Source of the DNA: an uncultured Bacillota bacterium
Lineage (GTDB): Bacteria; Bacillota_I; Bacilli_A; RFN20; CAG-826
DNA length: 64,000 bases
Assembly (NCBI GenBank): GCA_949299565.1
Contig: OX437086.1
Coordinates: 678,919-742,918 of the forward strand
Reading direction: 5' to 3'
How positions within the stretch are numbered: position 1 is the stretch's first letter; each line of letters opens with the position of its first letter. The notes below the pieces were generated by a model. The model did no database searches, was not told the origin of the DNA, and worked only from the letters and a program-made list of their open reading frames with translations. Positions 10,027 to 63,758 of this stretch are shown here, piece after piece. The translations under genes were made by a program, and so were the position numbers.

Positions 10027-10923
10027 TCAAAGCCTATTTTCATCTAAATATTTATAGAGAACAGCGAAATTTTCTGTAAAGTTTTTAAGAAGGATAAACA
10101 CTGTTTTGTTATTTTCGTCTTTCAATTTCATCATGTAGTAATTTTCTTCTATGTGCAGGTTACGATGGTCATGTGCTTTTTTAAGATAAAAAGGCTTATG
10201 AATGATGATGTTGCCGTTATCGATTGCGAGATAATGGAAGAAATAATTTAAGTAGCAATAAAGAGAAAAACCAAGCGTTAATATAGAACATAGCCAAAAT
10301 ATAATTGTCGCATATAGCGGGACGGGGAGTTCGAAAAGGTTTGGTATTACGCTGATGATCGCCAATGCCAATATCGCAAGCCCGAGAAGTCCGGTCCAAA
10401 ACCCCGAATAAGCCGTCACTTTATTAGCTCTAACGACCTTGCTTTCTAAGTTGATTTTTCGCGTTTCCACTGAGTTTGCGTAAGCTTCCAGAAACGCTTC
10501 AACGTTTGTATGAAATGAAGTGAAAGCGAATAGTTCTTTGCCGGTCTTATTAGAGGTTGCAACGATTCTGCCTGCTGAATAAACGATGACGAAATCTTTA
10601 TATTTATATTCTCGTTTGATGAAGAATATATTTTTTATAAGAGAACTTTTTTGGATTTTGCAATAACTAAAAAATAGCAAAAGTGAAAGCATAAGAAAGA
10701 CGAATGATATCGGGATGAATATTGCAATGCCTAACCAGAATGATTGATCTGACAACACATATGATAGTAGAGCGCCTATCCAAGAAAATAGAGAGCAAAA
10801 ATATAACGCACGACCAAAAATCGGCTGATATCTAATACTTTCTTTTGTTTTGTGAACATAAATTTCGGATATCGTGATCGTTAATGCCAAAAATCCTAAA
10901 TAAATAAAAATTAGATACCACAT
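10027..10923 (-). CDS. Hypothetical polytopic membrane protein (two repeats of 3-4 TM helices plus a small soluble domain), in an AT-rich island
   Basis: 298 aa with two blocks of hydrophobic helices, each followed by a ~60-aa hydrophilic segment. The gene and both flanks have much lower GC than the neighbouring genes. Confidence 0.45.
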   Translation of the reverse strand: MWYLIFIYLGFLALTITISEIYVHKTKESIRYQPIFGRALYFCSLFSWIGALLSYVLSDQSFWLGIAIFIPISFVFLMLSLLLFFSYCKIQKSSLIKNIFFIKREYKYKDFVIVYSAGRIVATSNKTGKELFAFTSFHTNVEAFLEAYANSVETRKINLESKVVRANKVTAYSGFWTGLLGLAILALAIISVIPNLFELPVPLYATIIFWLCSILTLGFSLYCYLNYFFHYLAIDNGNIIIHKPFYLKKAHDHRNLHIEENYYMMKLKDENNKTVFILLKNFTENFAVLYKYLDENRL

Positions 10924-12071: not shown

Positions 12072-12097
12072 AAGAGGGATTATCCCTCTTTTTTTTC
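12072..12097. terminator. Bidirectional rho-independent terminator (deoC on +, glycosyltransferase on -)
   Basis: AAGAGGGA-tta-TCCCTCTT followed by TTTTTTT. The stop codon of the minus-strand gene lies inside the stem. Confidence 0.7.
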
Positions 12098-13030
12098 TAA
12101 TATTTTGTCAATGAGATTTTTATATCTTTGAGGAATTTTGCTATTTTCTTTATATAGATCCTTCCGATAAGAATTTAATTCTTTTTTCTCGTTTTTATCA
12201 CGTGTTTTATCTAGGCGTCTATCATATTTTAACGATAAATATATTCGCGAACGATGTTTTGACAATAATTTGAGATATTGCCGATTATTAGTGGATAAAA
12301 ACAAATATTTTAAAAACCAATAAACTCCTAAATGTATACTTTCTCTGTTATTTCTGTTTTCGGAAGTTAAAGAATTGAGACCTTTTCTATAATAATAGAG
12401 AGTTTTTCTCGTGAAGATGACTTTTTGACTTTTTAAAAGCAAAGACACCATGGTTGGCAAATCTTCAAATAGTTCAAATTTTGTTTCAAAAATCCACGCG
12501 TTATCTTCAAACAATTTTTTTCGAAATAATTTACCCCAAAGGAATGATCGAAAACTTATATCGCTCAGCAATAACGAGATGGCTTTTTCTTGTCCAAAGA
12601 TTCTTTTCTTTCTAAAAGGATAGGGGACGACTCTTTCGTCTTTAAATATTGCAAACGAACCGACAGCAATGTCGGCTTTTGTTTCGTAGATTAAAGGATG
12701 TAAAACTTTTAAAAAATTCGCGGCAATCATATCGTCCGCGTCGACGAAAGCAATGAAAGGCGCTTTCGCTTCCTTTAAACCAGCCAGTCTCGCCTCGTTT
12801 GGCAACAACTTAACGGCAGAACGGACGATTCTAATGTTGAGGTTTTGTGTTTGAAATTTATGAGCGATGTCCAGCGTTTCATCTTCAGATGGCGAAAGGA
12901 CAATAATCACTTCATAAGCGATCTTGCTCTCTTGTGATACGATGCTTGTTAGAGTGGCTGACAATGTCTTACCAGCATTGAAGGCTGGAACGATAAAAGA
13001 AACGATAGGATTTATCATAACGATTGACAT
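12080..13030 (-). CDS. Family-2 glycosyltransferase
   Basis: N-terminal GT-A motifs FIVPAFNAG...FIAFVDADDM (DxD) and a basic Lys/Arg/Tyr-rich C-terminal tail. Confidence 0.8.
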   Translation of the reverse strand: MSIVMINPIVSFIVPAFNAGKTLSATLTSIVSQESKIAYEVIIVLSPSEDETLDIAHKFQTQNLNIRIVRSAVKLLPNEARLAGLKEAKAPFIAFVDADDMIAANFLKVLHPLIYETKADIAVGSFAIFKDERVVPYPFRKKRIFGQEKAISLLLSDISFRSFLWGKLFRKKLFEDNAWIFETKFELFEDLPTMVSLLLKSQKVIFTRKTLYYYRKGLNSLTSENRNNRESIHLGVYWFLKYLFLSTNNRQYLKLLSKHRSRIYLSLKYDRRLDKTRDKNEKKELNSYRKDLYKENSKIPQRYKNLIDKILEKKEG

Positions 13031-13047
13031 TGTATCCCTTCTTTTTC

Positions 13048-13076
13048 TTGACGTCTAAAACTTCCTCCGCCATAAT
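13048..13076 (+). promoter_or_regulatory. SigA-type promoter of rpsU
   Basis: -35 TTGACG (13048-13053), 17-nt spacer, -10 CATAAT (13071-13076). Confidence 0.5.
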
Positions 13077-13110
13077 CCTTACTGCCTTAGAAAAGAGGTG
13101 AAATTAGAAA

Positions 13111-13287
13111 GTGGCTATCAAAGTTACTTTGCGTGAAGGCGAATCGTTAGACGAGGGAATGCGGAGATTCAAGCGTTCCGTCAATAAATCAGGTGTTTTG
13201 CTTGAAACACGGAAACGTGAATTCTATTTAAAGACCGCGCTTCGCCGTAAAATGAAGTCAGAATTGGCTCGCCGTAAAAAATGGTAA
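13111..13287 (+). CDS. rpsU: 30S ribosomal protein S21 (GTG start)
   Basis: Manual translation gives [58 protein letters not shown], a clear S21 (…LRRFKRS…ARKREFYEKP…). RBS AAAGAGG is 10 nt upstream. At 58 aa it is below the ORF-track cutoff. Confidence 0.85.
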
Positions 13288-13292
13288 ATCCT

Positions 13293-13316
13293 AACCCGTC
13301 AATGACGGGTTTTTTC
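13293..13316 (+). terminator. Rho-independent terminator of rpsU
   Basis: AACCCGTC-aatg-ACGGGTT followed by TTTTT. Confidence 0.7.
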
Positions 13317-13363
13317 ATACATTTCATTTGCCTTTTTATAAGAGGATTTTTATTATCAAGCGT

Positions 13364-15490
13364 ATGCGTAAAAAAATTACTTCATTCTTATTACTATCTC
13401 TCGGCGCTTCCTTTTTAGTTTCATGCGTGGGGCCTATGGGTTCTAGTGTCGGCAGCACAAGCGACATTTCGTCTTTGCCTCCGGCCTCCTCTTCTTTGAC
13501 TGAACCGCAATTGGCAATCAGAGATGACGGAAATTATTACATCGGCGATACTTATAGCACGCTTGGAGAACCGACTGTTTATCTTGAAGATGGAGAAAGT
13601 TCAAGAGAACTCGACGTTACTTTTTTAAATTTAAATGTAGTTGATCCGTGGGGCTATGATTTCGAAACAGCAGACCCTTTCAGTGTTGCCGGCGATTATG
13701 TTGTTGATGCCTCTTTTAGTTACGAAGGGAAAGAATATACTCTAGCCTACACTTTCTATGTAAATTCGCTTCTTGAAATCGGAACTTCTCCTCTTCACCT
13801 ATCAGTGGAACTTGAAAAAGAACCGACACCGGGGATGAGAATTCTCGATGATAACGAAATTATTTTGGGCATCGAATGGTTGAATTACGGAGTTGAATAT
13901 TTTCGTTATGAGGAAGAGAATGCTGAATTCGCTCTTGAACTTTTCGAGAATCAACATGCCCTAAACGTAATTAATGAGCCCTTAATGAGTGATCGCGCTT
14001 ACGATTTGCGTTTTTCTTTTAGAGGACAGACAGCAAGTTACGCTTTTTCGCTTGATGAGGGGTATGTTGCCATCAGCGATCCTTCCTTTACGAGCGATGA
14101 AATCGATAGTTCCTATGCTCCTAGTAACGGCCCTTTAAATGTTTTGGTAGTGCCGATTTCTTTAGATCCTGGCGCCTACGCTGGCCTTCCGTGCCCTGAA
14201 TGGAATGAGACGACTATCTCGACCTTAAATGACGCGTTCTTTGGCGATAGCGATACATTGGTCGGGAACCGTCCTTCCTTCAAAACGTATTTTGAGTTGG
14301 CTTCTTATGGCGAGGTTTCAATCGAAGGATTTGTGGCCGATGTTTATTACGAACTTGATACACGTTACACAATGTCGGCAATCATGAACGATTCTACTTA
14401 CGGGCGCTTGAGTTCATTGATGCAGCGGGCGGTCGCTCAAACCATTGAAAATCATCCGGAAATCGATTGGAGCGACTTCGATCGCAATAACGACGCGCGT
14501 TTTGACGCTATTCATTTCGTCACTAACGTCCCTGATCAATACACGATGCAAGCTTATGTTGGTGATTGGTGGTCAACGCCCTTATGGCCGCATATGAGCG
14601 AATTAGAGCCTTTGAGCAGTGCTAGTCACGAGTTGCCGTCTGTCGGCGCTTATTCCATGAATGCGCTCGGCTTTTTTAACGATGCGATGACGGCTGTTCA
14701 TGAACAAGGACATATTTTTGGAATCGATGATTACTATGACTATTCCTATTATCGTGAATATTTAGGAAGTTACGATATGCAAGGAGCGGGTACGATGCTC
14801 GATTGGAACCCGTTCTCAAAATTCGCCGTCGGCTGGGGAACTCCTTATGTAGTGACGGGGCTTAAAGAAGAAGTGACAATCGACATCGGAGCGTTCTCTG
14901 CCACGGGTGAATCGATTATAATTCCGGCAAATTATGAGAATTTCAACGGCTCTGCGTTCTCTGAATATTTGATGATTGAACTTTATTCAGATAATGTCGG
15001 AGTCAACGCTTACGATTGGTTTGATGATTATTATCCTCGTTTAGGCAATGGATACGGCATTCGTCTATATCATGTCGATGCTCGTTTATGGGAAGCGCCT
15101 AGTTATTCCTACATCAATTCAGGAAACTTTGTCTCTTCACCCGAAGAAAGAACGGAGGGCTATAACTATTTAGGGGTTGGCTGCAATAATTCGTATGATT
15201 CTAGCGCATATGGATCATCGCCTTCACCGCGTGAATTAGAGCGTTATCCGCTCATCAATATCATTGAAGCCGATGGGAGGAACGATTTGATCAACGGCTA
15301 TAGCAGCATTCTAGAAGCAAGCGATCTTTTCTATAGCGGTGACGTCTTTAGTTGGAACGAATATAGCGATGCTCATCATAAAGACGGTCGTGAAATGACG
15401 ACGATGCATGACGGAACTACCTTCCCTTATGAAATAAGTTTCGATGAAGTGACAAGCACTTCGGCGACGATTACGATTTCTTTCCGTTAA
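13364..15490 (+). CDS. Secreted lipoprotein with a zinc-metalloprotease motif HExxHxxGxxD (M6 / immune inhibitor A-like)
   Basis: Lipoprotein signal MRKKITSFLLLSLGASFLVSC (lipobox LVSC). The central motif AVHEQGHIFGIDDYYD matches the M6 family motif HEfGHxLGLPDxYD. Confidence 0.6.
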   Translation: MRKKITSFLLLSLGASFLVSCVGPMGSSVGSTSDISSLPPASSSLTEPQLAIRDDGNYYIGDTYSTLGEPTVYLEDGESSRELDVTFLNLNVVDPWGYDFETADPFSVAGDYVVDASFSYEGKEYTLAYTFYVNSLLEIGTSPLHLSVELEKEPTPGMRILDDNEIILGIEWLNYGVEYFRYEEENAEFALELFENQHALNVINEPLMSDRAYDLRFSFRGQTASYAFSLDEGYVAISDPSFTSDEIDSSYAPSNGPLNVLVVPISLDPGAYAGLPCPEWNETTISTLNDAFFGDSDTLVGNRPSFKTYFELASYGEVSIEGFVADVYYELDTRYTMSAIMNDSTYGRLSSLMQRAVAQTIENHPEIDWSDFDRNNDARFDAIHFVTNVPDQYTMQAYVGDWWSTPLWPHMSELEPLSSASHELPSVGAYSMNALGFFNDAMTAVHEQGHIFGIDDYYDYSYYREYLGSYDMQGAGTMLDWNPFSKFAVGWGTPYVVTGLKEEVTIDIGAFSATGESIIIPANYENFNGSAFSEYLMIELYSDNVGVNAYDWFDDYYPRLGNGYGIRLYHVDARLWEAPSYSYINSGNFVSSPEERTEGYNYLGVGCNNSYDSSAYGSSPSPRELERYPLINIIEADGRNDLINGYSSILEASDLFYSGDVFSWNEYSDAHHKDGREMTTMHDGTTFPYEISFDEVTSTSATITISFR

Positions 15491-15526
15491 TTTAAGGCAA
15501 TATTCTTCTTTCTCATCTATTAAGAA

Positions 15527-16696
15527 GTGATGAGGGATCTTGTTTATCAGTCTAATTTCAATAGCTGCGGCTACGCTTCACTCCGCAGCTTTTTGATTTT
15601 ATTTACCAAGAGGAAAAGCTTTCGTTATCTTCGAAGTCAAAAGAAAGAACGCCTCTCTTTAAAGGAATTAAGTTCATTGGCGGAAGAACACGGGATCATA
15701 GTTAAATGGCGGCAAGCCTTCTCTTCTAATTGTTTAAAAGAAGCGAAGAACACGCCATATCTATTGCTGCTAAAAGATCAAAAAAGCGAACATTTAGTCG
15801 TTTTGAAAAGAGTAAGAAAAAACAAGGCGCTTATTCGGGATCCTGAGCAAGGCTGGCAAGCGATTGAACTTAAAAAGCTAGAAGAACGCTGGTCGCTAAT
15901 TTATGGAGAAGGAAAGAAAAGCGAAAATATTTCCGCTCCTCTTAAAATTAAATTTTTAAATCGGCAACTGTTGACGTTCACGATAGTTTCTCTTTTCTTT
16001 TTCGTTTTTGCCTTTCTCTTTTTTCTTTTCGCTCTTTCTTGTGGAAATTTCCTTTTTATGGGAATATTGATGACTATTTCCCTTCTATCGGCCATTGCTT
16101 TTCTCTTGTCGGTTCATCTTCTTTTCAAAGATTTTAAAAGACGATATCAAAGTCTTTTCTTTGATAAAGAGAAACTTTTTGAAGAAGACTTTTTAATATA
16201 TGAGAGATTCAAAGCCCAACTTTATGGACCTATTTTGCGTTTTTCCGCTTTTTTGTCAGTATCGATAGCGATCTATCTCTTTTTACTGAAGGAATCGTTC
16301 TTTCTCTTATCTGGAAGTTTGTTTCTGCTTGCAGTTTTTCCGTTTATCTACTTCGCTCTCTTTAAGCCTTTTAAAGAATCATTAAGCAAATTAGAGAAAG
16401 AGGAAACTCATTTCATGAAACACATAAACGAAGAGAGAAAGAAAATTATTAAGTTAGAGAAGAAGGCTGCGCGTCTCGCTTTTTATAAGGGAATTATGCT
16501 TTTCGCTATTTTGGCGCTTGTGATTTTAGCCTCTTTAATTCCTTCTTTTCTTACAAAAGTTTTTCTCCTTGATAGTTTTCTTTTTGGCATAAGCGTCAAT
16601 TTCGTCCTTTTCGAATGCTTAAAAGAAATTTTCTTAAATTTAACGAGCTTAGGCGACAAGAGACTGTTCGATGCCTTTTTTGAACGTTTTTACTAA
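15527..16696 (+). CDS. Peptidase C39 domain fused to a six-helix ABC-exporter-type transmembrane domain, with no ATP-binding domain
   Basis: N-terminus YQSNFNSCGYASL (Q...CG.A.L Cys motif), then EHLVVLKR...IRDPEQG (His and Asp region) as in bacteriocin-processing C39 domains. About 260 aa of membrane helices follow. The ORF stops with no NBD, and the next gene is ybeY. Confidence 0.65.
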   Translation: MMRDLVYQSNFNSCGYASLRSFLILFTKRKSFRYLRSQKKERLSLKELSSLAEEHGIIVKWRQAFSSNCLKEAKNTPYLLLLKDQKSEHLVVLKRVRKNKALIRDPEQGWQAIELKKLEERWSLIYGEGKKSENISAPLKIKFLNRQLLTFTIVSLFFFVFAFLFFLFALSCGNFLFMGILMTISLLSAIAFLLSVHLLFKDFKRRYQSLFFDKEKLFEEDFLIYERFKAQLYGPILRFSAFLSVSIAIYLFLLKESFFLLSGSLFLLAVFPFIYFALFKPFKESLSKLEKEETHFMKHINEERKKIIKLEKKAARLAFYKGIMLFAILALVILASLIPSFLTKVFLLDSFLFGISVNFVLFECLKEIFLNLTSLGDKRLFDAFFERFY

Positions 16697-16729
16697 GTTT
16701 TTTAAGTTTAACAATGATATAGTAGCAGC

Positions 16730-17191
16730 ATGGAATTGTTGTATTTAGAAGAATGGGAAAGTCACATTCCTGACTTAGAGTCGTCGCTTAAAAGCGCCTT
16801 GACGAAAACCTTCAAGCGCTTGAACGTTAAAGTTAATTATGAAGTTGACCTCACTTTGGTTGATAAAGAGACAATTCATCAATTGAATTATGAATATCGA
16901 AAAATCGATAGACCGACTGATGTTTTAAGTTTTGCCTTCCTTGAAGGCGAAGACCCGATTTCCAATATTAAGAATCCACGAATATTGCGCCTTTTAGGCG
17001 ATATTTTTATCGCTGGCGAGGTAGCAGAAAAACAAGCCGAAGAATTAGGACATTCTTTAAAACGCGAGATAGTTTTTCTTTTCATCCACGGTTTATTGCA
17101 TCTATTAGGTTACGATCATCAAAACGAAGAAGAAGCCGAGAAAATGTATGCTTTGCAACGCGAGATAATTCAGGAGGTTGAGGGATTATGA
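16730..17191 (+). CDS. ybeY: rRNA maturation endoribonuclease YbeY
   Basis: HGLLHLLGYDH metal-binding motif. Size 153 aa. Followed by cdd-era-recO as in Bacillus. Confidence 0.9.
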   Translation: MELLYLEEWESHIPDLESSLKSALTKTFKRLNVKVNYEVDLTLVDKETIHQLNYEYRKIDRPTDVLSFAFLEGEDPISNIKNPRILRLLGDIFIAGEVAEKQAEELGHSLKREIVFLFIHGLLHLLGYDHQNEEEAEKMYALQREIIQEVEGL

Positions 17192-17589
17192 TGGACAAAG
17201 AAACGCTTATTGAATTAGCGAAAGAAGCGCGCGAACTTTCCTATTCGCCTTATTCTAAGTTTGCTGTCGGGGCGGCTTTAGAATGCGAGGACGGAAGCGT
17301 CTATTTAGGCGCGAATGTCGAGAACGCCTCTTATCCTCTCAGCATGTGCGCTGAGCGCAATGCCATTTATAACGCTTTAATGGACGGCAAAAGCAAAGAC
17401 GATTTTGTAGCTTTGGCGGTAATCGGAGATACAGAAGACCCGATCAGTCCTTGCGGTGCTTGCCGCCAAGTTCTTTCTGAATTATTTCCCGAGGAGGCCC
17501 CGATTTATTTAGCCAATCTCGACGGCAAAATTTCCATAACTGATATCCGTTCATTATTGCCTTTCGCTTTTGCTGGAGGAGATTTATGA
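17188..17589 (+). CDS. cdd: Cytidine deaminase
   Basis: SPYSKFAVGAAL...CAERNAI...PCGACRQVL are homotetrameric Cdd motifs. Confidence 0.9.
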   Translation: MMDKETLIELAKEARELSYSPYSKFAVGAALECEDGSVYLGANVENASYPLSMCAERNAIYNALMDGKSKDDFVALAVIGDTEDPISPCGACRQVLSELFPEEAPIYLANLDGKISITDIRSLLPFAFAGGDL

Positions 17590-18479
17590 AGTCGGGTTTT
17601 GTGGCGCTTCTAGGATTGCCTAACGCCGGGAAGAGCAGTTTGCTCAACGCTTTAATGTCAGAAAAGATTGCAATCGTGACGCCGAAAGAACAGACGACGC
17701 GCGAAAATATTCTCGGGCTCGTCAACGGGCGCGATTACCAGATCGCTTTCATCGACACTCCCGGTTTATACGAAGGCGATGAAGCTCTTGCAAAAATCAT
17801 GATTCATAGTGCTCGGCGCGCGCTTTCTGATGTCGATGCTGTTTTTTATCTCATCGATTCCTCCAAGGGCGTTCGCGAGGAAGACATAAACTGGCTCAAA
17901 AGAATTAAAACATCAGCCCCCGTCTATTTACTCTTCAACAAAATCGATCTTGTCAAAGCGCCTGACATGGAGGAATTGTTGGCATATTATCAAAAGACGA
18001 AACCGGAATGTCTCCAAATTCAATTGTCCGTGAAAACTAATTTCAATTTGAAGGAAGTTCGAGAAATTGCTAAAAAGCATTTGAAAACGGAAGGGGAGCT
18101 TTTTCCGTCTTCAATGAAAAGCGATAAAAGTTTGTCTTTCCAAGCAAAAGAGATTATTCGCGAAAAGCTTCTAGTCTTTTTAAACGACGAAGTCCCGCAT
18201 CAATGTGCGGTTCTTCTAAAACAGTTCGTAGAAGACAAAGGCGAATTCTTCATAAAAGGCGAAATCCTTGTGGAGAAGGAAGGCCAAAAGGCCATCGTGA
18301 TTGGAAAAGGCGGAGCGATGATTAAAAAAATCGGAATCAGCGCGCGGCAGGAAATGGAGCGTGTTTTTAAGAAACACGTTTTTCTTGATTTAAAGGTCGT
18401 TTACGCCCCTCATTGGCGGAGCGATTACAAAGTTTTGGCAAAACTTGGTTATGGAAAAGACGCCGTTAACGACGATTGA
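17586..18479 (+). CDS. era: GTPase Era
   Basis: GFVALLGLPNAGKSSLLNAL (G1), DTPG (G3), NKIDL (G4), and a C-terminal KH domain. Confidence 0.95.
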   Translation: MKSGFVALLGLPNAGKSSLLNALMSEKIAIVTPKEQTTRENILGLVNGRDYQIAFIDTPGLYEGDEALAKIMIHSARRALSDVDAVFYLIDSSKGVREEDINWLKRIKTSAPVYLLFNKIDLVKAPDMEELLAYYQKTKPECLQIQLSVKTNFNLKEVREIAKKHLKTEGELFPSSMKSDKSLSFQAKEIIREKLLVFLNDEVPHQCAVLLKQFVEDKGEFFIKGEILVEKEGQKAIVIGKGGAMIKKIGISARQEMERVFKKHVFLDLKVVYAPHWRSDYKVLAKLGYGKDAVNDD

Positions 18480-19188
18480 AGGCTATATAATTCGCGTTTC
18501 GCCCTATAAAGATAAAGATGCGATCATCACAGTCCTTACGCCTCTTTCTCTCATATCCTTTCGCGCCCCCTCAGCGATGAAAAGCACGAGCCGTCTTCAT
18601 ATGGCGACGCTTATCTTAGCGCACGGGAAATTTTCTCTTAAAAAAAGCGGGAAATATTTCTCTCTTGTTGAAGTGGAACTTGATTTTTATCCGCATTTAG
18701 AAAGCGATTATTCACGTTGCGTCGCCTTTTCTTATATTCAAGAATTGGCCCAGAAGTTACTTCCTAAAGACAATATCTCTTTCGATAACAACCGAATATT
18801 TCTTTATCTCGATGAGAGCGTGCACGCGCTTATTGAAAATGTTGATGTTTATAAAACCGCGCTTTTTCTAACGGGCGGCTGGTTAAAAGAATTAGGATAT
18901 GGCTTCGAGGTGGATGAATGCTTAATTTGCGGGAGGCATGATGATATCGTCGCTTTTTCTTTTGCGGAGGGAGGCTTTTTGTGTCGTCAACACCAAAAAG
19001 AACCCGCTCTTCACGGGGCTGATCTTTTAAAAGTTGCTCGCTGGAGTTTCCGCACTGGCTTTGAGAAATGGAGAACTTCAGAAATTCCTCAAGCGCCAGC
19101 AAAAGAATTTTTCCTCACGCTCCTTGAACATATTCCGTTCTTTCTCGACATTAATTTCAAGTCTCTTCAATTGTGGAAGACATTATAA
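18451..19188 (+). CDS. recO: DNA repair protein RecO
   Basis: OB-fold N-terminus and a C-terminal CxxC...CxxH zinc motif (CLICGRHDD...FLCRQH). In the conserved position after era. Confidence 0.85.
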   Translation: MEKTPLTTIEGYIIRVSPYKDKDAIITVLTPLSLISFRAPSAMKSTSRLHMATLILAHGKFSLKKSGKYFSLVEVELDFYPHLESDYSRCVAFSYIQELAQKLLPKDNISFDNNRIFLYLDESVHALIENVDVYKTALFLTGGWLKELGYGFEVDECLICGRHDDIVAFSFAEGGFLCRQHQKEPALHGADLLKVARWSFRTGFEKWRTSEIPQAPAKEFFLTLLEHIPFFLDINFKSLQLWKTL

Positions 19189-19205
19189 AGTACACTTATA
19201 AGAGG

Positions 19206-19260
19206 TTGACAAACCATAGTTAAAAGAAGATAATCGCACGGGCGCAAAACCTGCGTGCGA
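19206..19260 (+). promoter_or_regulatory. glyQS promoter with a leader hairpin
   Basis: -35 TTGACA (19206-19211), 17-nt spacer, -10 GATAAT (19229-19234). A hairpin TCGCACG-N13-CGTGCGA follows and partly overlaps the GAGG Shine-Dalgarno. The leader is too short for a T-box. Confidence 0.5.
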
Positions 19261-19268
19261 GGTTTAAG

Positions 19269-20648
19269 ATGGCAAATAAATTTAGTTTTGAGACGGTTAC
19301 ACGGCATTTACAAAATGCCGGGTATGTTTTTCCCGGCTCCCAAATATATGGCGGCCTAGCCAATAGTTGGGATTATGGACCGTTAGGGGTTGAAATCAAG
19401 CGCAACGTCTTGTTGGCGCATTGGAAGAAATTTGTTCAGGAATCGCCATATAATGTCGGACTAGATTCATCTATTCTCATGAATAAGAAGGTTTGGGAAG
19501 CGACGGGACACGCGACCGCTTTTAACGATCCGATGATTGATTGCAAAAATTGCCATGCGCGTTTCCGGGCCGACGATCTTTTAGAGGAGCAATACCCGGA
19601 TCTCGACGTTCATGCGCTCGGAAGCGATGATCTTAACAAAGCCTTGAAAACGCATCAATTAAAATGCCCTCGTTGCGGTTCTTCCTCCTTCACCGACGTT
19701 CGACAGTTCAACATGATGTTCAAAACTCACATTGGAGTTACTGATGATTCTGCTTCTTTAGTTTATTTACGACCGGAAACTGCACAAGGCGTCTTTGTTA
19801 ATTTCAAAAATGTCCAACGAGCGACAAGAAAGAAACTTCCGTTTGGAATCGTTCAGTCAGGCAAAGCTTTCCGCAACGAAATTACGCCGGGGAACTTCAC
19901 CTTTAGAACGCGTGAATTTGAACAGATTGAAATGGAATTCTTCTGCGAACCGGGAAGCGATCTTGAATGGTTTAAATATTGGAAGGAATATTGTCTCCGT
20001 TTCGTTGAAGGGCTTGGAATCAAGAAAGAAAACCTTCGTTTCCGTGATCACGAGCAAGAGGAATTGGCTTTCTATTCACGAGCAACAACGGATGTTGAAT
20101 ACGATTTCCCGACGCTTGGCTGGGGCGAAATTTTAGGAATCGCCGATCGCACTGACTATGATTTGAAGCGCCATCAAGAATATAGCGGTGAAGATTTAAC
20201 ATATTTTGATAGCGAGAAAAACGAACGTTATCTCCCGTATGTTATTGAACCATCGATGGGCTTGGATCGTTTAGTGCTTATGACATTAGTCGATGCTTAT
20301 GATGAAGAAGAATTGCCTGATAATGACAAGCGGATTGTTTTGCGTTTAGCGCCATTTTTAGCGCCATACAAAGTAGCGGTTCTCCCTCTTTCGAAAAAGC
20401 TTAACGAGAAGGCTTTTGAAGTTTTCAATATTTTATCGAAATATTTGATGTGCACTTATGATGTGACTGGTTCCATCGGAAAACGTTATCGTCGTCAAGA
20501 TGAAATCGGAACGCCATATTGCGTCACGATTGATTTCGACACGATAAACGATCAGAGCGTGACTGTTCGTGAACGCGATTCAATGAAACAAATAAGGCTT
20601 TCAATCACTGAATTAGTCAATTATTTGACGGTCAAGACTTTCTATTGA
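19269..20648 (+). CDS. glyQS: Glycine--tRNA ligase, class II alpha2 homodimeric type
   Basis: N-terminus MANKFSFETVTRHLQNAGYVFPGSQIYGGLANSWDYGPLGVE is typical of the single-chain GlyRS. 459 aa. Confidence 0.92.
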   Translation: MANKFSFETVTRHLQNAGYVFPGSQIYGGLANSWDYGPLGVEIKRNVLLAHWKKFVQESPYNVGLDSSILMNKKVWEATGHATAFNDPMIDCKNCHARFRADDLLEEQYPDLDVHALGSDDLNKALKTHQLKCPRCGSSSFTDVRQFNMMFKTHIGVTDDSASLVYLRPETAQGVFVNFKNVQRATRKKLPFGIVQSGKAFRNEITPGNFTFRTREFEQIEMEFFCEPGSDLEWFKYWKEYCLRFVEGLGIKKENLRFRDHEQEELAFYSRATTDVEYDFPTLGWGEILGIADRTDYDLKRHQEYSGEDLTYFDSEKNERYLPYVIEPSMGLDRLVLMTLVDAYDEEELPDNDKRIVLRLAPFLAPYKVAVLPLSKKLNEKAFEVFNILSKYLMCTYDVTGSIGKRYRRQDEIGTPYCVTIDFDTINDQSVTVRERDSMKQIRLSITELVNYLTVKTFY

Positions 20649-59412: not shown

Positions 59413-60972
59413 TTATCTTTTCCCTAGAACTAAAAATTCTTTTTTACGGCTATTTTGATAATCGTTGAGACGAAATTCGCCATATAATTCAACTTTCTCC
59501 CCTTCATGAAAATTTTTCTCGCCAAGAGTGAAGGAAAAAAGCGTCAGACCGTTAGAAATGCTCGTCAACAAAAAGCGTCCGTCGCGCGTGAATGATAATT
59601 CCTCAACTTCAATTTTTTCAAGAAGAAAGATTGGAGACGGAAAACCTTGGCCATAAGGTTCTAAACGCAAAACAAGCTCGGCATTTTCTTCATTGATTTC
59701 ATCGAAGAAAAGAGGACAGTATTTATTTTTTTCATCAACTGTTGATGGCTGGAAGCGCTTCTTTAGAGCATAAGCGATAAATTCTTTTCGAAATCTTAAA
59801 AAATCTTCTTCCTTGATGCTAAGCCCCGCTGCATGTTGATGGCCGCCGTAAGAAAGAGGCGTAAAACTTAACGAATCGATTATTTCCCGGCAATCAAAAC
59901 CAGAAGGAACGCGCATGGAACCGACTAAAGATCCTTGATGAAGGTTTGAACGGGCAAAGACCGCGACGGGTTTTTCTTTTTTTTGCAAAATAGCGTTCGC
60001 GATTAAGCCGTTAAGCCCTTCTTTTCCATCAAAAACATAAGCGTACGCCACATCATCGTCTCGAAGAGAAAAACTATTCGTCGCCTCTTTCGTCAGCTCC
60101 TTGCGCTTATTGTTGATGTTTTTAAAACAAGTCGCTAAAGCTTTTTGTTCTTTAAGATCATCGCTTGCAAAATAACGGACAAGGCGATTAGTTTGATGCC
60201 CTTCTTCCAATCGTCCGACCGCGTTAATCGAGGGAATTACTTTCAAAGAAAAGTTTTTATAATTCGCTTCGCTTCCGTCTAAAAGAAGCGAAAGAGAAGG
60301 AAAATTGTATTTTTTCTGATATTTTTCAAGCAGTTGAACGATGATGCGATTATGCTCTTTTAATTCCATCATATCGCTCAATGTCGAAAGTCCGCCAAGC
60401 GCTATAAGATATGGATCATCATTCTTCAAAAGAGCAGAGGCAAAAAGCGATGAAAGATAGCCAGCAGAAACGCTTGGGGCCGGATAGTTTAAGGTAAAAG
60501 GATGAATGAGAGCCTCAAGAGGAGGGATCTCTGCATTTAGACTGTGATGATCGATAGCCATGGCGCGAATCCCTAATTCTTTCGCCCTTCTTAAAGGAGA
60601 AAAGCAACTGACGCCATTATCGACAAGAAAAATGTAACGAAATCCAGCGCTCGCGATTTTCTCTAAGTTTTGATCGTTGAGGCCATAGCCATCTAAATAA
60701 CGGGACGGCAGATAAAAACTAACGTCTAATCCGTATTTTTTAAGCGCTAAATAGATGATTGAAGTCGCCATCGCACCATCACAATCATAATCTCCGTAAA
60801 TAAGAACTTTTGCCCCTTCATTGCGCGCGTCATTTAAAAAAGCAATCGCCTTTTGGCATTCTTCGTTTTCTTCAAAATGTGGAAGCAAAAAAGGAGAAGG
60901 CTCTCGGCACAACTTCCGATAAGCCTCCTCATCAATCTTTAAATAATCGAAGAGACGTTCACGAAACGTCAT
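59413..60972 (-). CDS. recJ: DHH/DHHA1 single-stranded-DNA exonuclease RecJ, short form
   Basis: DHH motifs (YGDYDCDGAMA, DHH at AIDHHS) and a DHHA1 GGH motif (GGHQHAAG). Lies between secDF and relA, as recJ(yrvE) does in Bacillus. Lacks the C-terminal OB domain (519 aa). Confidence 0.7.
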   Translation of the reverse strand: MTFRERLFDYLKIDEEAYRKLCREPSPFLLPHFEENEECQKAIAFLNDARNEGAKVLIYGDYDCDGAMATSIIYLALKKYGLDVSFYLPSRYLDGYGLNDQNLEKIASAGFRYIFLVDNGVSCFSPLRRAKELGIRAMAIDHHSLNAEIPPLEALIHPFTLNYPAPSVSAGYLSSLFASALLKNDDPYLIALGGLSTLSDMMELKEHNRIIVQLLEKYQKKYNFPSLSLLLDGSEANYKNFSLKVIPSINAVGRLEEGHQTNRLVRYFASDDLKEQKALATCFKNINNKRKELTKEATNSFSLRDDDVAYAYVFDGKEGLNGLIANAILQKKEKPVAVFARSNLHQGSLVGSMRVPSGFDCREIIDSLSFTPLSYGGHQHAAGLSIKEEDFLRFRKEFIAYALKKRFQPSTVDEKNKYCPLFFDEINEENAELVLRLEPYGQGFPSPIFLLEKIEVEELSFTRDGRFLLTSISNGLTLFSFTLGEKNFHEGEKVELYGEFRLNDYQNSRKKEFLVLGKR

Positions 60973-63758
60973 CAGTCATTGATCCCGATGAAGATGGCCT
61001 CTTCAGGCTCGCTGCTCTTCTTCTTTTTCACGTCATCTCCAGAAGTTTTCTTCCGTTCGTGACGGAGAAGATTTTCAAGCTTTTGGAAATGAATTGCCAA
61101 GAAATTGCTAAGAGGCGCCAATAAGACCAAAATGAAGAGCAAGAGGAATAAGGATCCAACCAAGATTCCAAGATAAGTCATTCTCCACGCTTCCGGACCG
61201 ATTCCAAAGAAGAAGGCCCAACTAAAGAATGACAAAAGAGCGAATATAATGATATCTCCGGCTCCTTCAGAAACGCTTCTCGTTAAGCATGTCGCCTGGA
61301 ATTCTAGATTTCGCTTATCTTTTTCGCGCGAATCTTTCGCCAAAGAACGAGCTTTGTCAAGAATATAAGCGCAGAAGAGGAAACCTAACACGCCAATTGC
61401 AATTGCTCCTAAGGAAACGATTGGGGTAACTGGAATTCTTGTAAGCGAGAAGAAAGCTAGCGGCAATAAAGAAGAACCGGCAATCAAAACGTTCGCGACA
61501 ATTCCGCGGCTCAAACGGAAACGAATAAGGAAATAAACAGCAGCCGATAAAAGTCCGATTCCATAGCCGAGCCAAACGCTTTCAAGAGTCGGCAAGCCTG
61601 GTTCAATGTCGACAAAAGAAACTTCAGCATCGAGGCGATCGCCGGCGTAATAAACAGAGGCAGCCTCTAAAGCATCGCTCAAACTTGTATACTCGTTGCC
61701 GTTAACCCGATAATAACCCTCATTCATCAAATTGATGAGTGGCACTTCAAAATAATAAACGTCATAAACAATTCTGGAATATGAGTCAAAGACGTTTCCT
61801 TCTTCAAATATGACATCGCTATAATCGTCAGTCGCAAGCGGGAGATAGGTTTCTCCTTCATCGTTAGAATGTTCGATAAGCGGCAAGAAATCATCTTGCA
61901 ACTGCGAAACACTGGCCAATAAAAGCGTTTCTTCAGTCCCCGATTCAACCCGATATTCAATATTTAATGATGTCGCATCATCATAGGCGTTGCCGTAATT
62001 ATAAGGCGTTCCGCTTAAGGAGTTGAAAGTGGCGATACCGACGATTGAGGCGCACATCAAAGCGCCGAAAAGTCCGCCGATCCATTTCTTATGCTTAGCA
62101 AAATTCGTCGTTGCGTAAGGACCGAAATATGAAGGTTTTTCCTCTTTGAGCAAATTGGGAATTTTGCTGAGATCGCAGCCATAAATCTTGTCTAATTTGT
62201 TCTCGCTAGCGGCGTCGTTAGCAAGTAACCATCCTTCAAGACGCAAGATAAGAAGGTTGGTGACGCCGGAGAAGAAACCGCCTAAAACGAGAATCAAACC
62301 TAATTGTCCGACAGCGCCAGGAACTAAGGAATATACGCAAACACCGATTAAAATCGCGATGATCGAGGCGTCGAACACTGGCCAAAAGGTCTTTTTCATC
62401 GCTTCGTGATGCGATTTTTTAAGGGTTCGTCCTTCATATAATTGCTCTTTGATTTTGGCGAAGTAAACAACGCCGCCAAAAGCAGCAATCAAAGCCACGA
62501 GAATAAGACCCACAAGCGTTCCGATTCCGAATTGTGAAGAGAAATATGCATATAGAAGCATCGTGCTGAGGAGAGTAACTCCAACGTTGGCAGTGATGCC
62601 CAAAGCGCCTAAGCGATAGAAACAAGCGAGGACAACGATTCCGACAGCCAAAGAAATAAGCGAAGCGATTGCAGTCCAGCCAAGCGTTGGCGATAAGTGC
62701 CAATCTCCGGCAGTGATTAAAGGCTCGCTCGTTGGGGCGATATCGCTGTAATAAGCATAAGTAACATCATATCCCACGCCTTCACCGACGATGTCGGCAT
62801 AAGAAGAGGCGTTGAGCATATTCATATAGAAAAAGGCAGCTTTATAAGCGGCACCAGCCCTGCTTTCATCAAATTGTCCCGATTCAATCGCGCTCGAATT
62901 AGGAACAAGTTGAAGACGGGTATAATCTAAGTCATCGTCGCTATCGTCATACCAAGCCGAAGCGGCATTCTCGCCGAAAAGGAGACGAGAAGACATGTTC
63001 GGATCGTAATTCTCATTTTCAGAATCACTAGCTTCAGCAAAATTATCGCCTTCTTGCCGATTAGCCCAAAGAACCAAATAGCAATCAGAGCCTTCTTCTC
63101 CAGTGCTGGAATCAGGCGCTACAGTGTTTTCCTGACAATAATTGATAAGTTCTGCCAAAGGGCCGTCAGCTCCGGCTGCTTCATCATTTACCTCAACCGT
63201 GACGACAGGAATATCGTTCACATAACGGATATCGGCAGTATTGCCTTCAATCAAACGATTCTCAGTAAAAACATCGTATGAAGGCGCGCCGCTGACGATT
63301 TCTTCGTCAGTGCTACCAGCAGCCACCGTAATATTTTCACCGCTATAAGCCAAATAACGGGTGATATAATTATATTCAACTTCGTCAGCGTCTTGGGCTC
63401 TGATTTGAACTTTGATCGTGTTATAACCCTCTTTAATAACCGTTGAATTGACGCCCCATGTTTCTAAGCGCCGTTCCATTTCCTCGCTGACAGCGTCAAC
63501 GGCTTGATAGCCGTCATCCTGGATGTAATTATCAGGATCGACCCCGTTATAAGTTGTACCATGCTCAGAGATCTTGAAAACCAATTCACGCCCTGCTCCA
63601 TACGTCAAATCGGTATCCATGCTTGTGATAGCACTTCCGATCGTTGCAGCTCCGGCAAAGATTAAGGCAGAAGAGAGCAAAATATAAGCTAATTTACGTC
63701 GCATTGTCGACCTCCGATGATGGAAGAAAAACCAGCCAAAAAGCCTGGCACGTGACAC
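60972..63758 (-). CDS. secDF: Fused protein translocase subunit SecDF with an expanded acidic extracytoplasmic domain
   Basis: SecD-type N-terminal helix, a P1 domain, and two six-helix bundles with the conserved SecD/SecF core (…GPVVGLILVALIAAFGG…). In the conserved position between ruvB and recJ. 928 aa. Confidence 0.7.
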   Translation of the reverse strand: MSRARLFGWFFFHHRRSTMRRKLAYILLSSALIFAGAATIGSAITSMDTDLTYGAGRELVFKISEHGTTYNGVDPDNYIQDDGYQAVDAVSEEMERRLETWGVNSTVIKEGYNTIKVQIRAQDADEVEYNYITRYLAYSGENITVAAGSTDEEIVSGAPSYDVFTENRLIEGNTADIRYVNDIPVVTVEVNDEAAGADGPLAELINYCQENTVAPDSSTGEEGSDCYLVLWANRQEGDNFAEASDSENENYDPNMSSRLLFGENAASAWYDDSDDDLDYTRLQLVPNSSAIESGQFDESRAGAAYKAAFFYMNMLNASSYADIVGEGVGYDVTYAYYSDIAPTSEPLITAGDWHLSPTLGWTAIASLISLAVGIVVLACFYRLGALGITANVGVTLLSTMLLYAYFSSQFGIGTLVGLILVALIAAFGGVVYFAKIKEQLYEGRTLKKSHHEAMKKTFWPVFDASIIAILIGVCVYSLVPGAVGQLGLILVLGGFFSGVTNLLILRLEGWLLANDAASENKLDKIYGCDLSKIPNLLKEEKPSYFGPYATTNFAKHKKWIGGLFGALMCASIVGIATFNSLSGTPYNYGNAYDDATSLNIEYRVESGTEETLLLASVSQLQDDFLPLIEHSNDEGETYLPLATDDYSDVIFEEGNVFDSYSRIVYDVYYFEVPLINLMNEGYYRVNGNEYTSLSDALEAASVYYAGDRLDAEVSFVDIEPGLPTLESVWLGYGIGLLSAAVYFLIRFRLSRGIVANVLIAGSSLLPLAFFSLTRIPVTPIVSLGAIAIGVLGFLFCAYILDKARSLAKDSREKDKRNLEFQATCLTRSVSEGAGDIIIFALLSFFSWAFFFGIGPEAWRMTYLGILVGSLFLLLFILVLLAPLSNFLAIHFQKLENLLRHERKKTSGDDVKKKKSSEPEEAIFIGIND

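What the first reader, a model, noticed from the sequence alone, without database searches (positions are those of the whole stretch)
13364..16696. Two-gene protease module: an M6-like HExxH lipoprotein plus a C39 peptidase fused to an ABC-exporter membrane domain that has lost its ATPase
Bacillus and its relatives have rpsU-yqeY-...-phoH-yqfF-ybeY here. This genome replaces the middle genes with a 709-aa secreted lipoprotein carrying HEQGHIFGIDD (the HExxHxxGxxD motif of M6 / immune inhibitor A proteases). Next comes a 389-aa protein whose N-terminus is a canonical bacteriocin-processing C39 cysteine peptidase (Q..CG.A.L and HLVVL...DP motifs), fused to a roughly six-helix ABC-exporter-type membrane domain. 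The ORF stops cleanly with no nucleotide-binding domain, and ybeY follows 34 bp later. A C39 domain with a transmembrane domain but no NBD is an unusual, poorly characterised architecture. It could be a decayed exporter, or a membrane-anchored leader peptidase working with an NBD supplied in trans. It could also act together with the adjacent surface metalloprotease. I saw no obvious GG-leader peptide gene next to it.
Basis: partly seen in the sequence, partly recalled or inferred. Interest (0 to 1): 0.7.

Follow-up and report, generated by a model that had tools for sequence, protein, structure and literature searches.

The report
Conserved ATPase-less C39 peptidase membrane protein
The second gene is not a broken bacteriocin exporter: it belongs to a large, apparently undescribed family that fuses an intact leader-cleaving peptidase to an ABC-exporter-type membrane domain with no ATPase, kept beside ribosome-maturation genes in uncultured gut Bacilli, while the neighbouring metalloprotease gene is an unrelated local insertion.

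Summary

The interpretation needs correcting. This is not local decay. An exhaustive HMMER search found 204 cluster representatives, and nearly all of the best 150 listed are 380-422 aa and align end to end. In 9 of 10 independent contexts the gene lies between rpsU and ybeY-cdd-era-recO, although the Era proteins compared are only 37-53% identical. The M6 gene is not a conserved partner. It is an insertion at the rpsU | C39-TMD junction.

The likely function is an NBD-independent leader peptidase, possibly also an exporter, for an unlinked substrate. SbmA is a precedent for an ATPase-less protein of this fold. I rate it a new variant of a known kind.

The parts
13111..13287 (+). rpsU (ribosomal protein S21), the upstream anchor of the conserved synteny
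   Evidence: ORF. PF01165 on the identical gene of L001.
13293..13311 (+). Intrinsic-terminator-like hairpin with a T run after rpsU. It is the strongest terminator-like site the scan found in 12900..19400.
   Evidence: sequence.
13364..15490 (+). M6/InhA-like zinc metalloprotease lipoprotein, 708 aa. It has a disordered tether after the lipobox, Ig-like beta domains at about residues 49-236, and a catalytic domain from about residue 256.
13424..13426 (+). Lipobox cysteine codon (Cys21 of L-V-S-C)
   Evidence: Sequence. Cys21 is at least 90% conserved in A5.
14699..14731 (+). HEQGHIFGIDD, the HExxHxxGxxD zinc-binding motif (residues 446-456)
   Evidence: H446, E447, H450, G453 and D456 are invariant in 44 homologues.
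15527..16696 (+). Gene for the C39 peptidase fused to a six-helix ABC-exporter-fold membrane domain, with no NBD. 389 aa from GTG 15527, or 388 aa from ATG 15530.
15527..15919 (+). Cytoplasmic C39 peptidase domain (residues 1-131)
15566..15568 (+). Catalytic Cys14 codon (TGC). The oxyanion-hole Gln8 lies at 15548..15550.
   Evidence: Cys14 is invariant in 60 of 60 and Gln8 is present in 78%. It aligns to the CG motif of LahT.
15791..15793 (+). Catalytic His89 codon
   Evidence: Invariant. It aligns to the His of LahT.
15839..15844 (+). Asp105-Pro106 codons (the third catalytic residue, in a DP motif)
   Evidence: Invariant. They align to the DPakG of LahT.
15959..16693 (+). Membrane domain, residues 145-389. 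It has six long helices: TM1 145-170, TM2 175-212, TM3 219-255, TM4 257-297, TM5 304-343 and TM6 348-373, followed by a C-terminal helix. Glu293 is invariant, and the family-wide FD(204) and Lys229 lie on the cytoplasmic helix extensions.
16730..17191 (+). ybeY, the conserved immediate downstream neighbour
   Evidence: Pfam YbeY E 4e-45. It follows the C39-TMD gene after 11-47 nt in L005, L006, L008, L009, L012, L016, L093 and L094.
17188..19188 (+). cdd, era and recO, the rest of the conserved downstream cluster. Their ORFs overlap one another.
   Evidence: No convincing terminator precedes 19200.

Best explanation
The product of 15527..16696 belongs to a conserved, vertically inherited family of about 400-aa proteins found so far only in metagenomes and MAGs. 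The few named members are from uncultured Bacilli, including Candidatus Onthovivens.

Each member has a catalytically intact cytoplasmic C39 (double-glycine-type) cysteine peptidase. A short linker joins it to a six-helix membrane domain with the ABC type-IV exporter fold, and there is no nucleotide-binding domain. In effect it is a PCAT without its motor.

The gene is a fixed part of the rpsU-[C39-TMD]-ybeY-cdd-era-recO cluster. It sits where Bacillales carry pgpH, and it is probably co-transcribed with ybeY and era.

Inferred mechanism, by analogy with PCAT1: the protein probably forms a homodimer. The peptidase docks at the cytoplasmic mouth of the membrane domain and cleaves an N-terminal leader from one or more substrates encoded elsewhere in the genome. 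The membrane domain then holds the cargo or lets it pass without ATP. Passage could be facilitated or driven by the proton-motive force, as in the NBD-less ABC-fold transporter SbmA.

The upstream M6/InhA-like lipoprotein is an independent Sec/SPII surface protease. Its gene was inserted at the variable rpsU | C39-TMD junction in this lineage only.

Shown here: the architecture, the fold, the conserved catalytic triad, the absence of an NBD, the size of the family, the synteny, and the non-conservation of the M6 neighbour. Inferred: dimerisation, the nature of the substrate, whether transport occurs, and the energy source.
For: Family. HMMER against 1.84 billion cluster representatives gave 204 hits at E <= 1e-3. 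Nearly all of the best 150 listed are 380-422 aa and align over about residues 2-388. Among 60 aligned members, Cys14, His89, Asp105-Pro106 and Glu293 are invariant and lengths run from 383 to 422 aa.

No NBD. No PF00005 gene lies within 6-8 kb in any of the related loci.

Synteny. rpsU...C39-TMD-ybeY-cdd-era holds in the window and in L005, L006/7, L008, L009/10, L012, L016, L093 and L094, with Era 37-53% identical across six of these loci. The gaps to ybeY are 11-47 nt, and there is no terminator between the genes in the window.

Topology. K/R-rich loops at 200-236 and 281-320 and short loops on the other side place the C39 domain in the cytoplasm.

Not mobile. There is no tblastn match in the plasmid or phage collections.

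M6 gene not linked. See and the contexts listed above.
Against: No substrate was identified. Regex screens found no double-glycine leader ORF in the 64 kb window or in the related loci.

Transport without an NBD is pure inference.

The membrane domain shows no statistically significant sequence similarity to ABC_membrane. No member hits Pfam PF00664, and hhalign aligns only the C39 part. Common ancestry with ABC exporters therefore rests on a predicted structure.

The cytoplasmic helix extensions are shorter than in PCAT1, and the two cytoplasmic turns (213-218 and 298-303) are plain loops in the model. The cavity may therefore differ from that of a true exporter.

The window protein has Lys at the position where 97% of the family has Asp (the FD motif after TM2), with Asp two residues earlier.

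One family member, from Ca. Onthovivens (L011), sits between ribF and ileS-lspA instead.
Confidence: 0.55

Rival explanations
1. The protein is a membrane-anchored processing peptidase only. The ABC-like membrane domain serves as an anchor, a dimerisation scaffold or a substrate receptor, and nothing crosses the membrane through it. The cleaved product stays in the cytoplasm or membrane, or leaves by another route.
For: There is no energy module. The cytoplasmic helix extensions are shortened and the model shows no coupling-helix-like elements. The C39 domain is better conserved than the membrane domain, at 30% against 20% mean pairwise identity. No small secreted-peptide gene lies nearby.
Against: All six helices, the overall length, and specific charged residues on the helix extensions (Glu293 invariant, Asp204 97%, Lys229 95%) are conserved across very divergent members. 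That is more than a simple anchor would need. The model superposes on complete exporter membrane domains over about 240 residues.
Confidence: 0.22
2. It is a split ABC transporter. The protein still works as an ATP-driven PCAT, with a separately encoded NBD from an unlinked gene docking on its cytoplasmic loops.
For: The most conserved residues of the membrane domain (Asp204, Lys229, Glu293) lie on the cytoplasmic ends of TM2, TM3 and TM4. In ABC exporters this is where the NBD is contacted.
Against: No ABC ATPase gene is present in the 64 kb window or within 6-8 kb of the gene in nine other contexts. The intracellular loops are short turns without coupling helices in the model. From general knowledge, type-IV exporters almost always have the NBD fused to the membrane domain.
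Confidence: 0.13
3. One reading: a two-gene protease module in which the surface M6 metalloprotease and the C39-TMD protein act together. The pair would be a lineage-specific replacement of the Bacillus genes between rpsU and ybeY.
For: The two genes are adjacent on the same strand, 36 nt apart, with no terminator between them in this window.
Against: The adjacency is unique to this lineage. Six relatives have rpsU directly followed by the C39-TMD gene. One has two other ORFs there, of 184 and 821 aa, and the 821-aa product is unrelated to the M6 protein (BLASTP E 0.6). Two M6 homologues examined elsewhere have no C39 neighbour. The M6 protein has a Sec/SPII lipoprotein signal, so it does not need a C39-type leader peptidase.
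Confidence: 0.04
4. It is a decayed exporter: a recent truncation, pseudogene or sequencing frameshift of a full-length PCAT.
For: None beyond the missing NBD.
Against: Nearly all of the 150 listed relatives are 380-422 aa (204 hits in all). The catalytic triad is invariant. The stop is clean and ybeY follows after 33 nt. The same end point is seen in independent assemblies.
Confidence: 0.02

Closest known systems
PCAT / AMS transporters (peptidase-containing ABC transporters: PCAT1 of Clostridium thermocellum, ComA, LahT, SunT-type)
   Different: There is no NBD at all, so the protein is about 400 aa rather than about 700. The membrane domain is not recognisable by ABC_membrane sequence models. 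The cytoplasmic helix extensions are shorter. The gene is not in a bacteriocin or quorum-sensing cluster but in a housekeeping rpsU-ybeY-era cluster. No double-glycine substrate gene lies nearby.
SbmA / BacA (NBD-less ABC-exporter-fold peptide transporters)
   Different: SbmA has no peptidase domain and has extra N-terminal helices. It imports peptides in Gram-negative bacteria. No sequence relationship was detected here.
Mollicutes 'Mbov_0121 family peptidase domain-containing ABC transporter' (NCBIfam NF045998; M. genitalium MG_390 'sunT' is a mycoplasma C39-type ABC transporter that may belong here, membership not tested)
   Same: It is the NCBIfam model that the most family members hit: 54 of 60, with the window protein at E 3e-13 over the C39 domain plus TM1. 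MG_390 is described as a putative peptide-secretion ABC transporter. It is sigma-20 regulated, co-transcribed with MG_389 and dispensable, and its deletion lowers recombination-based transformation tenfold (PMC4446450, PMC6105099). From memory only, not tested here: MG_388 and MG_387 are ybeY and era, which would put MG_390 in a similar chromosomal neighbourhood.
   Different: The Mollicutes proteins are full length (a profile of 673 positions) and carry an NBD. The scores here (at most about 50-60 bits) are far below the model cut-off of 500, and the match stops after TM1.
Immune inhibitor A (InhA, MEROPS M6) of the Bacillus cereus group, for the upstream gene
   Same: Both have the HExxHxxGxxD zinc site. 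The best fold match is the InhA2 zymogen 4yu6/4yu5. The TIGR03296 M6 domain matches at E 1.7e-19.
   Different: The window protein is lipid-anchored rather than secreted. It has N-terminal Ig-like domains. It scores below the curated cut-offs of both Pfam and NCBIfam. Its homologues come from uncultured Bacilli.

Membership tests
PCAT / AMS (peptidase-containing ABC transporter) | N-terminal C39 peptidase domain with catalytic Cys and His (plus Asp, and an oxyanion Gln) | tested here: met
PCAT / AMS (peptidase-containing ABC transporter) | Six-helix type-IV ABC exporter transmembrane domain | tested here: inconclusive
PCAT / AMS (peptidase-containing ABC transporter) | C-terminal nucleotide-binding domain (Walker A/B, LSGGQ) | tested here: not met
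   The ORF stops at 16696 and ybeY starts at 16730. No ABC motif pair occurs in the window. Nearly all of the 150 listed relatives are 380-422 aa.
PCAT / AMS (peptidase-containing ABC transporter) | Double-glycine-leader substrate gene(s) in the same locus | tested here: not met
   Regex screens of the window and related loci found none. The screen is crude, and substrates may be unlinked.
MEROPS C39 peptidases | Papain-like fold with the Cys-His dyad in the C39 arrangement, and proteolytic activity after Gly-Gly | tested here: met
   Fold and residues are met. Activity and specificity cannot be tested with these tools.
Mbov_0121 family C39 ABC transporter (NCBIfam NF045998) | Full-length match above the curated cut-off (500 bits over about 673 positions) | tested here: not met
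   48.8 bits, covering profile positions 2-175 only. The best E-value in the family is 1.6e-17.
SbmA/BacA-type NBD-less ABC-fold transporters | ABC-exporter-like membrane domain without an NBD, with transport driven by the proton gradient | tested here: inconclusive
Peptidase M6 (immune inhibitor A), upstream gene | HExxHxxGxxD zinc-binding motif within an InhA-like catalytic domain | tested here: met
   The motif is invariant in 44 homologues. InhA2 is the top fold match at E 6e-9.
Peptidase M6 (immune inhibitor A), upstream gene | Score above the curated family thresholds (Pfam PF05547, NCBIfam TIGR03296) | tested here: not met
   There is no Pfam hit for the window protein. TIGR03296 scores 70.8 bits against a cut-off of 110.8. 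Only 7 of 44 homologues hit PF05547.

The most novel reading that the evidence does not exclude
The family is a previously unrecognised class of motor-less PCAT. It would be a housekeeping machine, kept in the ybeY-era operon, that couples C39 leader cleavage to ATP-independent passage of a conserved cell-envelope or signalling protein across the membrane. Passage could be driven by the proton gradient or ratcheted by the cleavage itself. It would be a natural experiment in what a type-IV ABC membrane domain can do without its NBD.
Probability: 0.3. Interest if true: 0.8.

Novelty: new variant of a known kind. Interest (0 to 1): 0.6.

Why it matters
PCATs are the textbook case of ATP-driven coupling between leader cleavage and export. 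This family has at least 200 sequence clusters. It keeps the peptidase and the exporter-fold membrane domain under selection but has no ATPase, so it raises a direct question: what does the membrane domain do without a motor?

Only SbmA/BacA offers a precedent for an NBD-less protein of this fold, and it has no peptidase.

The gene is a fixed neighbour of ybeY and era in a deep clade of uncultured, mostly gut-associated Bacilli. It is therefore probably important for their basic cell biology rather than for bacteriocin warfare.

On the practical side, public annotation calls these proteins only 'C39 domain-containing' or 'hypothetical'. A family definition would improve the annotation of many MAGs.

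Tried and rejected
1. The word-indexed protein search found only the query itself when given the protein, and only 3 family members when given the 60-sequence profile. The low-complexity membrane words saturate the index. The exhaustive HMMER search was what revealed the family.
With the single protein it found nothing in the GTDB genomes.
It did yield one further family locus (L016) and the Bacillales and Erysipelothrix control loci. It did not give the taxonomy of the window organism.
4. The afdb50 fold library was unavailable.
5. PADLOC gave no defence-system match. The plasmid and phage collections gave no match.
6. Literature searches found no description of an NBD-less C39-membrane-domain family. 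'Mbov_0121' appears in only two papers, neither of which I opened.
7. I could not confirm from papers that MG_388 and MG_387 are ybeY and era. That positional link to Mollicutes remains a lead from memory.
8. I rejected the decayed-exporter, frameshift and two-gene-module readings. The reasons are given under the rival explanations.
Full report
**What is there**

The window carries rpsU at 13111..13287, followed by a clear hairpin-plus-T-run terminator at 13293..13311. A 708-aa ORF follows at 13364..15490, then a 389-aa ORF at 15527..16696. Next come ybeY (16730..17191), cdd, era and recO with overlapping or tightly spaced ORFs. Both ORFs of the finding are therefore real and sit at the stated coordinates. 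The scan found no terminator-like site between the M6-like gene, the C39 gene and ybeY.

**The upstream protein**

- It starts with a lipoprotein signal, MRKKITSFLLLSLGASFLVS|C.
- Pfam finds nothing for it. NCBIfam's M6 domain model TIGR03296 matches residues 286-516 at E 1.7e-19, below its curated cut-off.
- About 90 homologues exist, almost all from metagenomes. The only organism names attached are 'Bacilli bacterium' and 'Firmicutes bacterium'.
- In an alignment of 44 of them, H446, E447, H450, G453 and D456 (HExxHxxGxxD) are invariant, and the lipobox Cys is at least 90% conserved. Seven of the 44 reach Pfam Peptidase_M6.
- An AlphaFold model (pLDDT 88.4) shows a disordered tether at 1-45, beta-sandwich domains, and a catalytic domain. 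Its best PDB matches are the four chains of the B. anthracis immune inhibitor A2 entries 4yu5/4yu6 (E 6e-9).

'M6-like HExxH lipoprotein' is therefore a fair description.

**The C39 protein**

- Pfam places Peptidase_C39 on residues 5-123 (E 3e-14), with no ABC_membrane hit even at E <= 1.
- Hydropathy gives six helices in three hairpins. The K/R-rich loops at 200-236 and 281-320 and the very short alternate loops put the C39 domain and both long loops in the cytoplasm.
- The ORF ends cleanly, and ybeY starts 33 nt later.
- A six-frame motif scan of all 64 kb finds only two Walker A sites, in Era and one other GTPase/ATPase, and no ABC signature paired with a Walker A. A hidden or adjacent NBD is excluded.

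**It is a family, not a wreck**

The word-indexed search saw only the protein itself. The exhaustive HMMER search of 1.84 billion cluster representatives returned 204 proteins at E <= 1e-3. Among the best 150 listed, nearly all are 380-422 aa and align from about residue 2 to about residue 388 of the query. No protein of PCAT length (about 700 aa) appears in that list.

An alignment of 60 members (383-422 aa) has Cys14, His89, Asp105-Pro106 and Glu293 invariant. Gln8 is present in 78%. An Asp after TM2 (the FD motif) is present in 97%, and Lys229 in 95%. The catalytic motifs align residue for residue with those of the LahT, PCAT1 and ComA peptidase domains. Mean pairwise identity is 30% in the C39 part and 20% in the membrane part. 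The membrane domain is divergent, but it keeps uniform length and topology.

Every one of the 60 hits Pfam C39, and none hits ABC_membrane. A profile-profile comparison with three full PCATs aligns only the C39 domain.

**Fold**

With the 60-sequence alignment, AlphaFold2 gives a confident model (pLDDT 91.5, pTM 0.85). It has a C39 fold at 1-131 and six long helices at 145-170, 175-212, 219-255, 257-297, 304-343 and 348-373, followed by a C-terminal helix.

- Foldseek's top 13 PDB matches are all PCAT1, aligned across both domains.

TM2-TM5 extend only about 14-17 residues beyond the membrane. The two cytoplasmic turns (213-218 and 298-303) are simple loops in the model. I read this, cautiously, as the loss of the NBD-coupling elements.

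**Genomic context: the main correction**

I fetched contigs for family members that are only about 20-30% identical to the window protein. The gene order rpsU - C39-TMD - ybeY - cdd - era (- recO - glyS - dnaG - sigA) recurs in:

- L005
- L006/L007
- L008
- L009/L010
- L012
- L016, a GTDB representative MAG
- L093 and L094

That is 9 of 10 independent contexts, counting the window. The Era proteins of six of these loci are only 37-53% identical, so the arrangement is old. The gap to ybeY is 11-47 nt throughout. The one exception is a Ca. Onthovivens-type contig, where the gene lies between ribF and ileS-lspA.

In control loci the same slot is filled differently. Scopulibacillus (Bacillales) has yqfD-phoH-pgpH-ybeY-dgkA-cdd-era. 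Erysipelothrix has phoU-ybeY-dgkA-cdd-era. Among 80 essentially random bacterial era loci, only L016 contained a family member.

**The M6 gene is not a partner**

In L008, L009, L012, L016, L093 and L094, rpsU is followed directly by the C39-TMD gene. L006/L007 have two ORFs of 184/209 and 821 aa in that gap, and the 821-aa product shows no similarity to the M6 protein. Contigs carrying M6 homologues (L002, L004) have no C39 gene nearby. The rpsU | C39-TMD junction is thus a variable spot, and in this lineage the lipoprotein gene has landed there. The deoC | rpsU gap is similar: it holds a GT2 gene here and in L006 and L093, and an acetyltransferase gene in L094. The 'two-gene protease module' is not supported.

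**What it probably does**

Shown:

- An intact cytoplasmic double-glycine-type peptidase is tethered to an exporter-fold membrane domain.
- There is no ATPase.
- The architecture is conserved and the gene is inherited chromosomally. It has no plasmid or phage matches and no defence-system match.

Inferred: by analogy with PCAT1, a homodimer in which the peptidase sits at the cytoplasmic mouth of the membrane domain and removes a leader from a substrate encoded elsewhere. No double-glycine-leader ORF was found in the window or in the relatives' loci. The membrane domain would then either let the cargo pass without ATP or merely position it.

SbmA shows that this fold can transport peptides without an NBD. 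That point rests on general knowledge; the fold match is.

The conserved charged residues Asp204, Lys229 and Glu293 sit on the cytoplasmic helix extensions. They could form the docking surface for the peptidase, a proton-relay or gating network, or a contact for an NBD supplied in trans. I cannot distinguish these possibilities.

The tight linkage to ybeY-era suggests co-transcription and constitutive, growth-linked expression. It does not prove a functional link to ribosome maturation. Bacillales keep unrelated membrane proteins (PgpH, DgkA) in the same operon.

**Relation to known families**

The protein fails the PCAT definition on the NBD. It is not a member of the Mollicutes 'Mbov_0121' C39-ABC family (48.8 bits against a cut-off of 500), although that model is the NCBIfam hit shared by 54 of 60 members.

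M. genitalium MG_390 is a mycoplasma C39-type ABC transporter that I take, without testing it, to be of this kind. It is described as a dispensable, sigma-20-regulated putative peptide exporter, co-transcribed with MG_389 (PMC4446450, PMC6105099). My recollection that MG_388 and MG_387 are ybeY and era would make it a positional counterpart, but I could not verify this here.

Public annotation of family members is only 'cysteine peptidase family C39 domain-containing protein' or 'hypothetical protein'. I found no paper describing the architecture.

**Verdict**

The interesting object is the C39-TMD gene alone. It is a member of a sizeable, apparently undescribed family of motor-less PCAT-like proteins, fixed beside ybeY and era in a clade of uncultured Bacilli. 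I class it as a new variant of a known kind, with interest 0.6. The architecture and conservation are solid. The mechanism and the substrate remain inferred.

Noticed in passing
window 10027..10923 (-): A 298-aa multi-pass membrane protein with no Pfam, NCBIfam or PADLOC match lies between rpmF and deoC. Relatives (L012, L016, L093, L094) have rpmF directly followed by deoC, so this is another lineage-specific insertion in the same conserved backbone.
   Followed up: partly
window 12080..13030 (-): A GT2 glycosyltransferase lies on the opposite strand between deoC and rpsU. L006 and L093 also carry a 320-aa GT2 gene on the minus strand upstream of rpsU, and L093 has a GT4 gene as well. L094 has an acetyltransferase gene in that gap. 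The deoC | rpsU gap is a second variable spot that collects envelope-related genes.
   Followed up: partly
L006 4851..7867 and L007 2433..5524: In these relatives the rpsU | C39-TMD gap holds two ORFs of 184/209 and 821 aa with no Pfam family. The 821-aa product starts with a signal-like segment and is unrelated to the M6 lipoprotein. This junction seems to attract surface-protein genes repeatedly.
   Followed up: partly
L008 2986..3852: In this relative, ybeY and cdd are called as one 288-aa fused ORF carrying YbeY plus cytidine deaminase domains. It is either a real fusion or an assembly or frameshift effect.
   Followed up: no
window 16127..16138 (residues 201-204 of the C39-TMD protein): The window protein reads K-D-F-K where 97% of the family has an F-D motif after TM2. 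It has Lys at the near-invariant Asp position and an Asp two residues earlier. This could be a local swap or an alignment slip.
   Followed up: partly
window 16730..17589 compared with L039 and L062: dgkA lies between ybeY and cdd in the Bacillales and Erysipelothrix controls. It is absent from this position in the window and in all family-bearing relatives.
   Followed up: partly
window 60972..63758 (-): A 928-aa ORF next to recJ and relA has no Pfam match at E <= 1e-5.
   Followed up: no
L011 1162..5968: In the Ca. Onthovivens-type contig the family member has moved. It lies between ribF and ileS-lspA (signal peptidase II)-rluD rather than beside ybeY.
   Followed up: no
L026 (CAVHBE010000088.1, labelled Methanobrevibacter smithii): A 5 kb contig filed under an archaeal genome encodes a bacterial-type Era 39% identical to the window's. 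It is probably a contaminant contig in that assembly.
   Followed up: no
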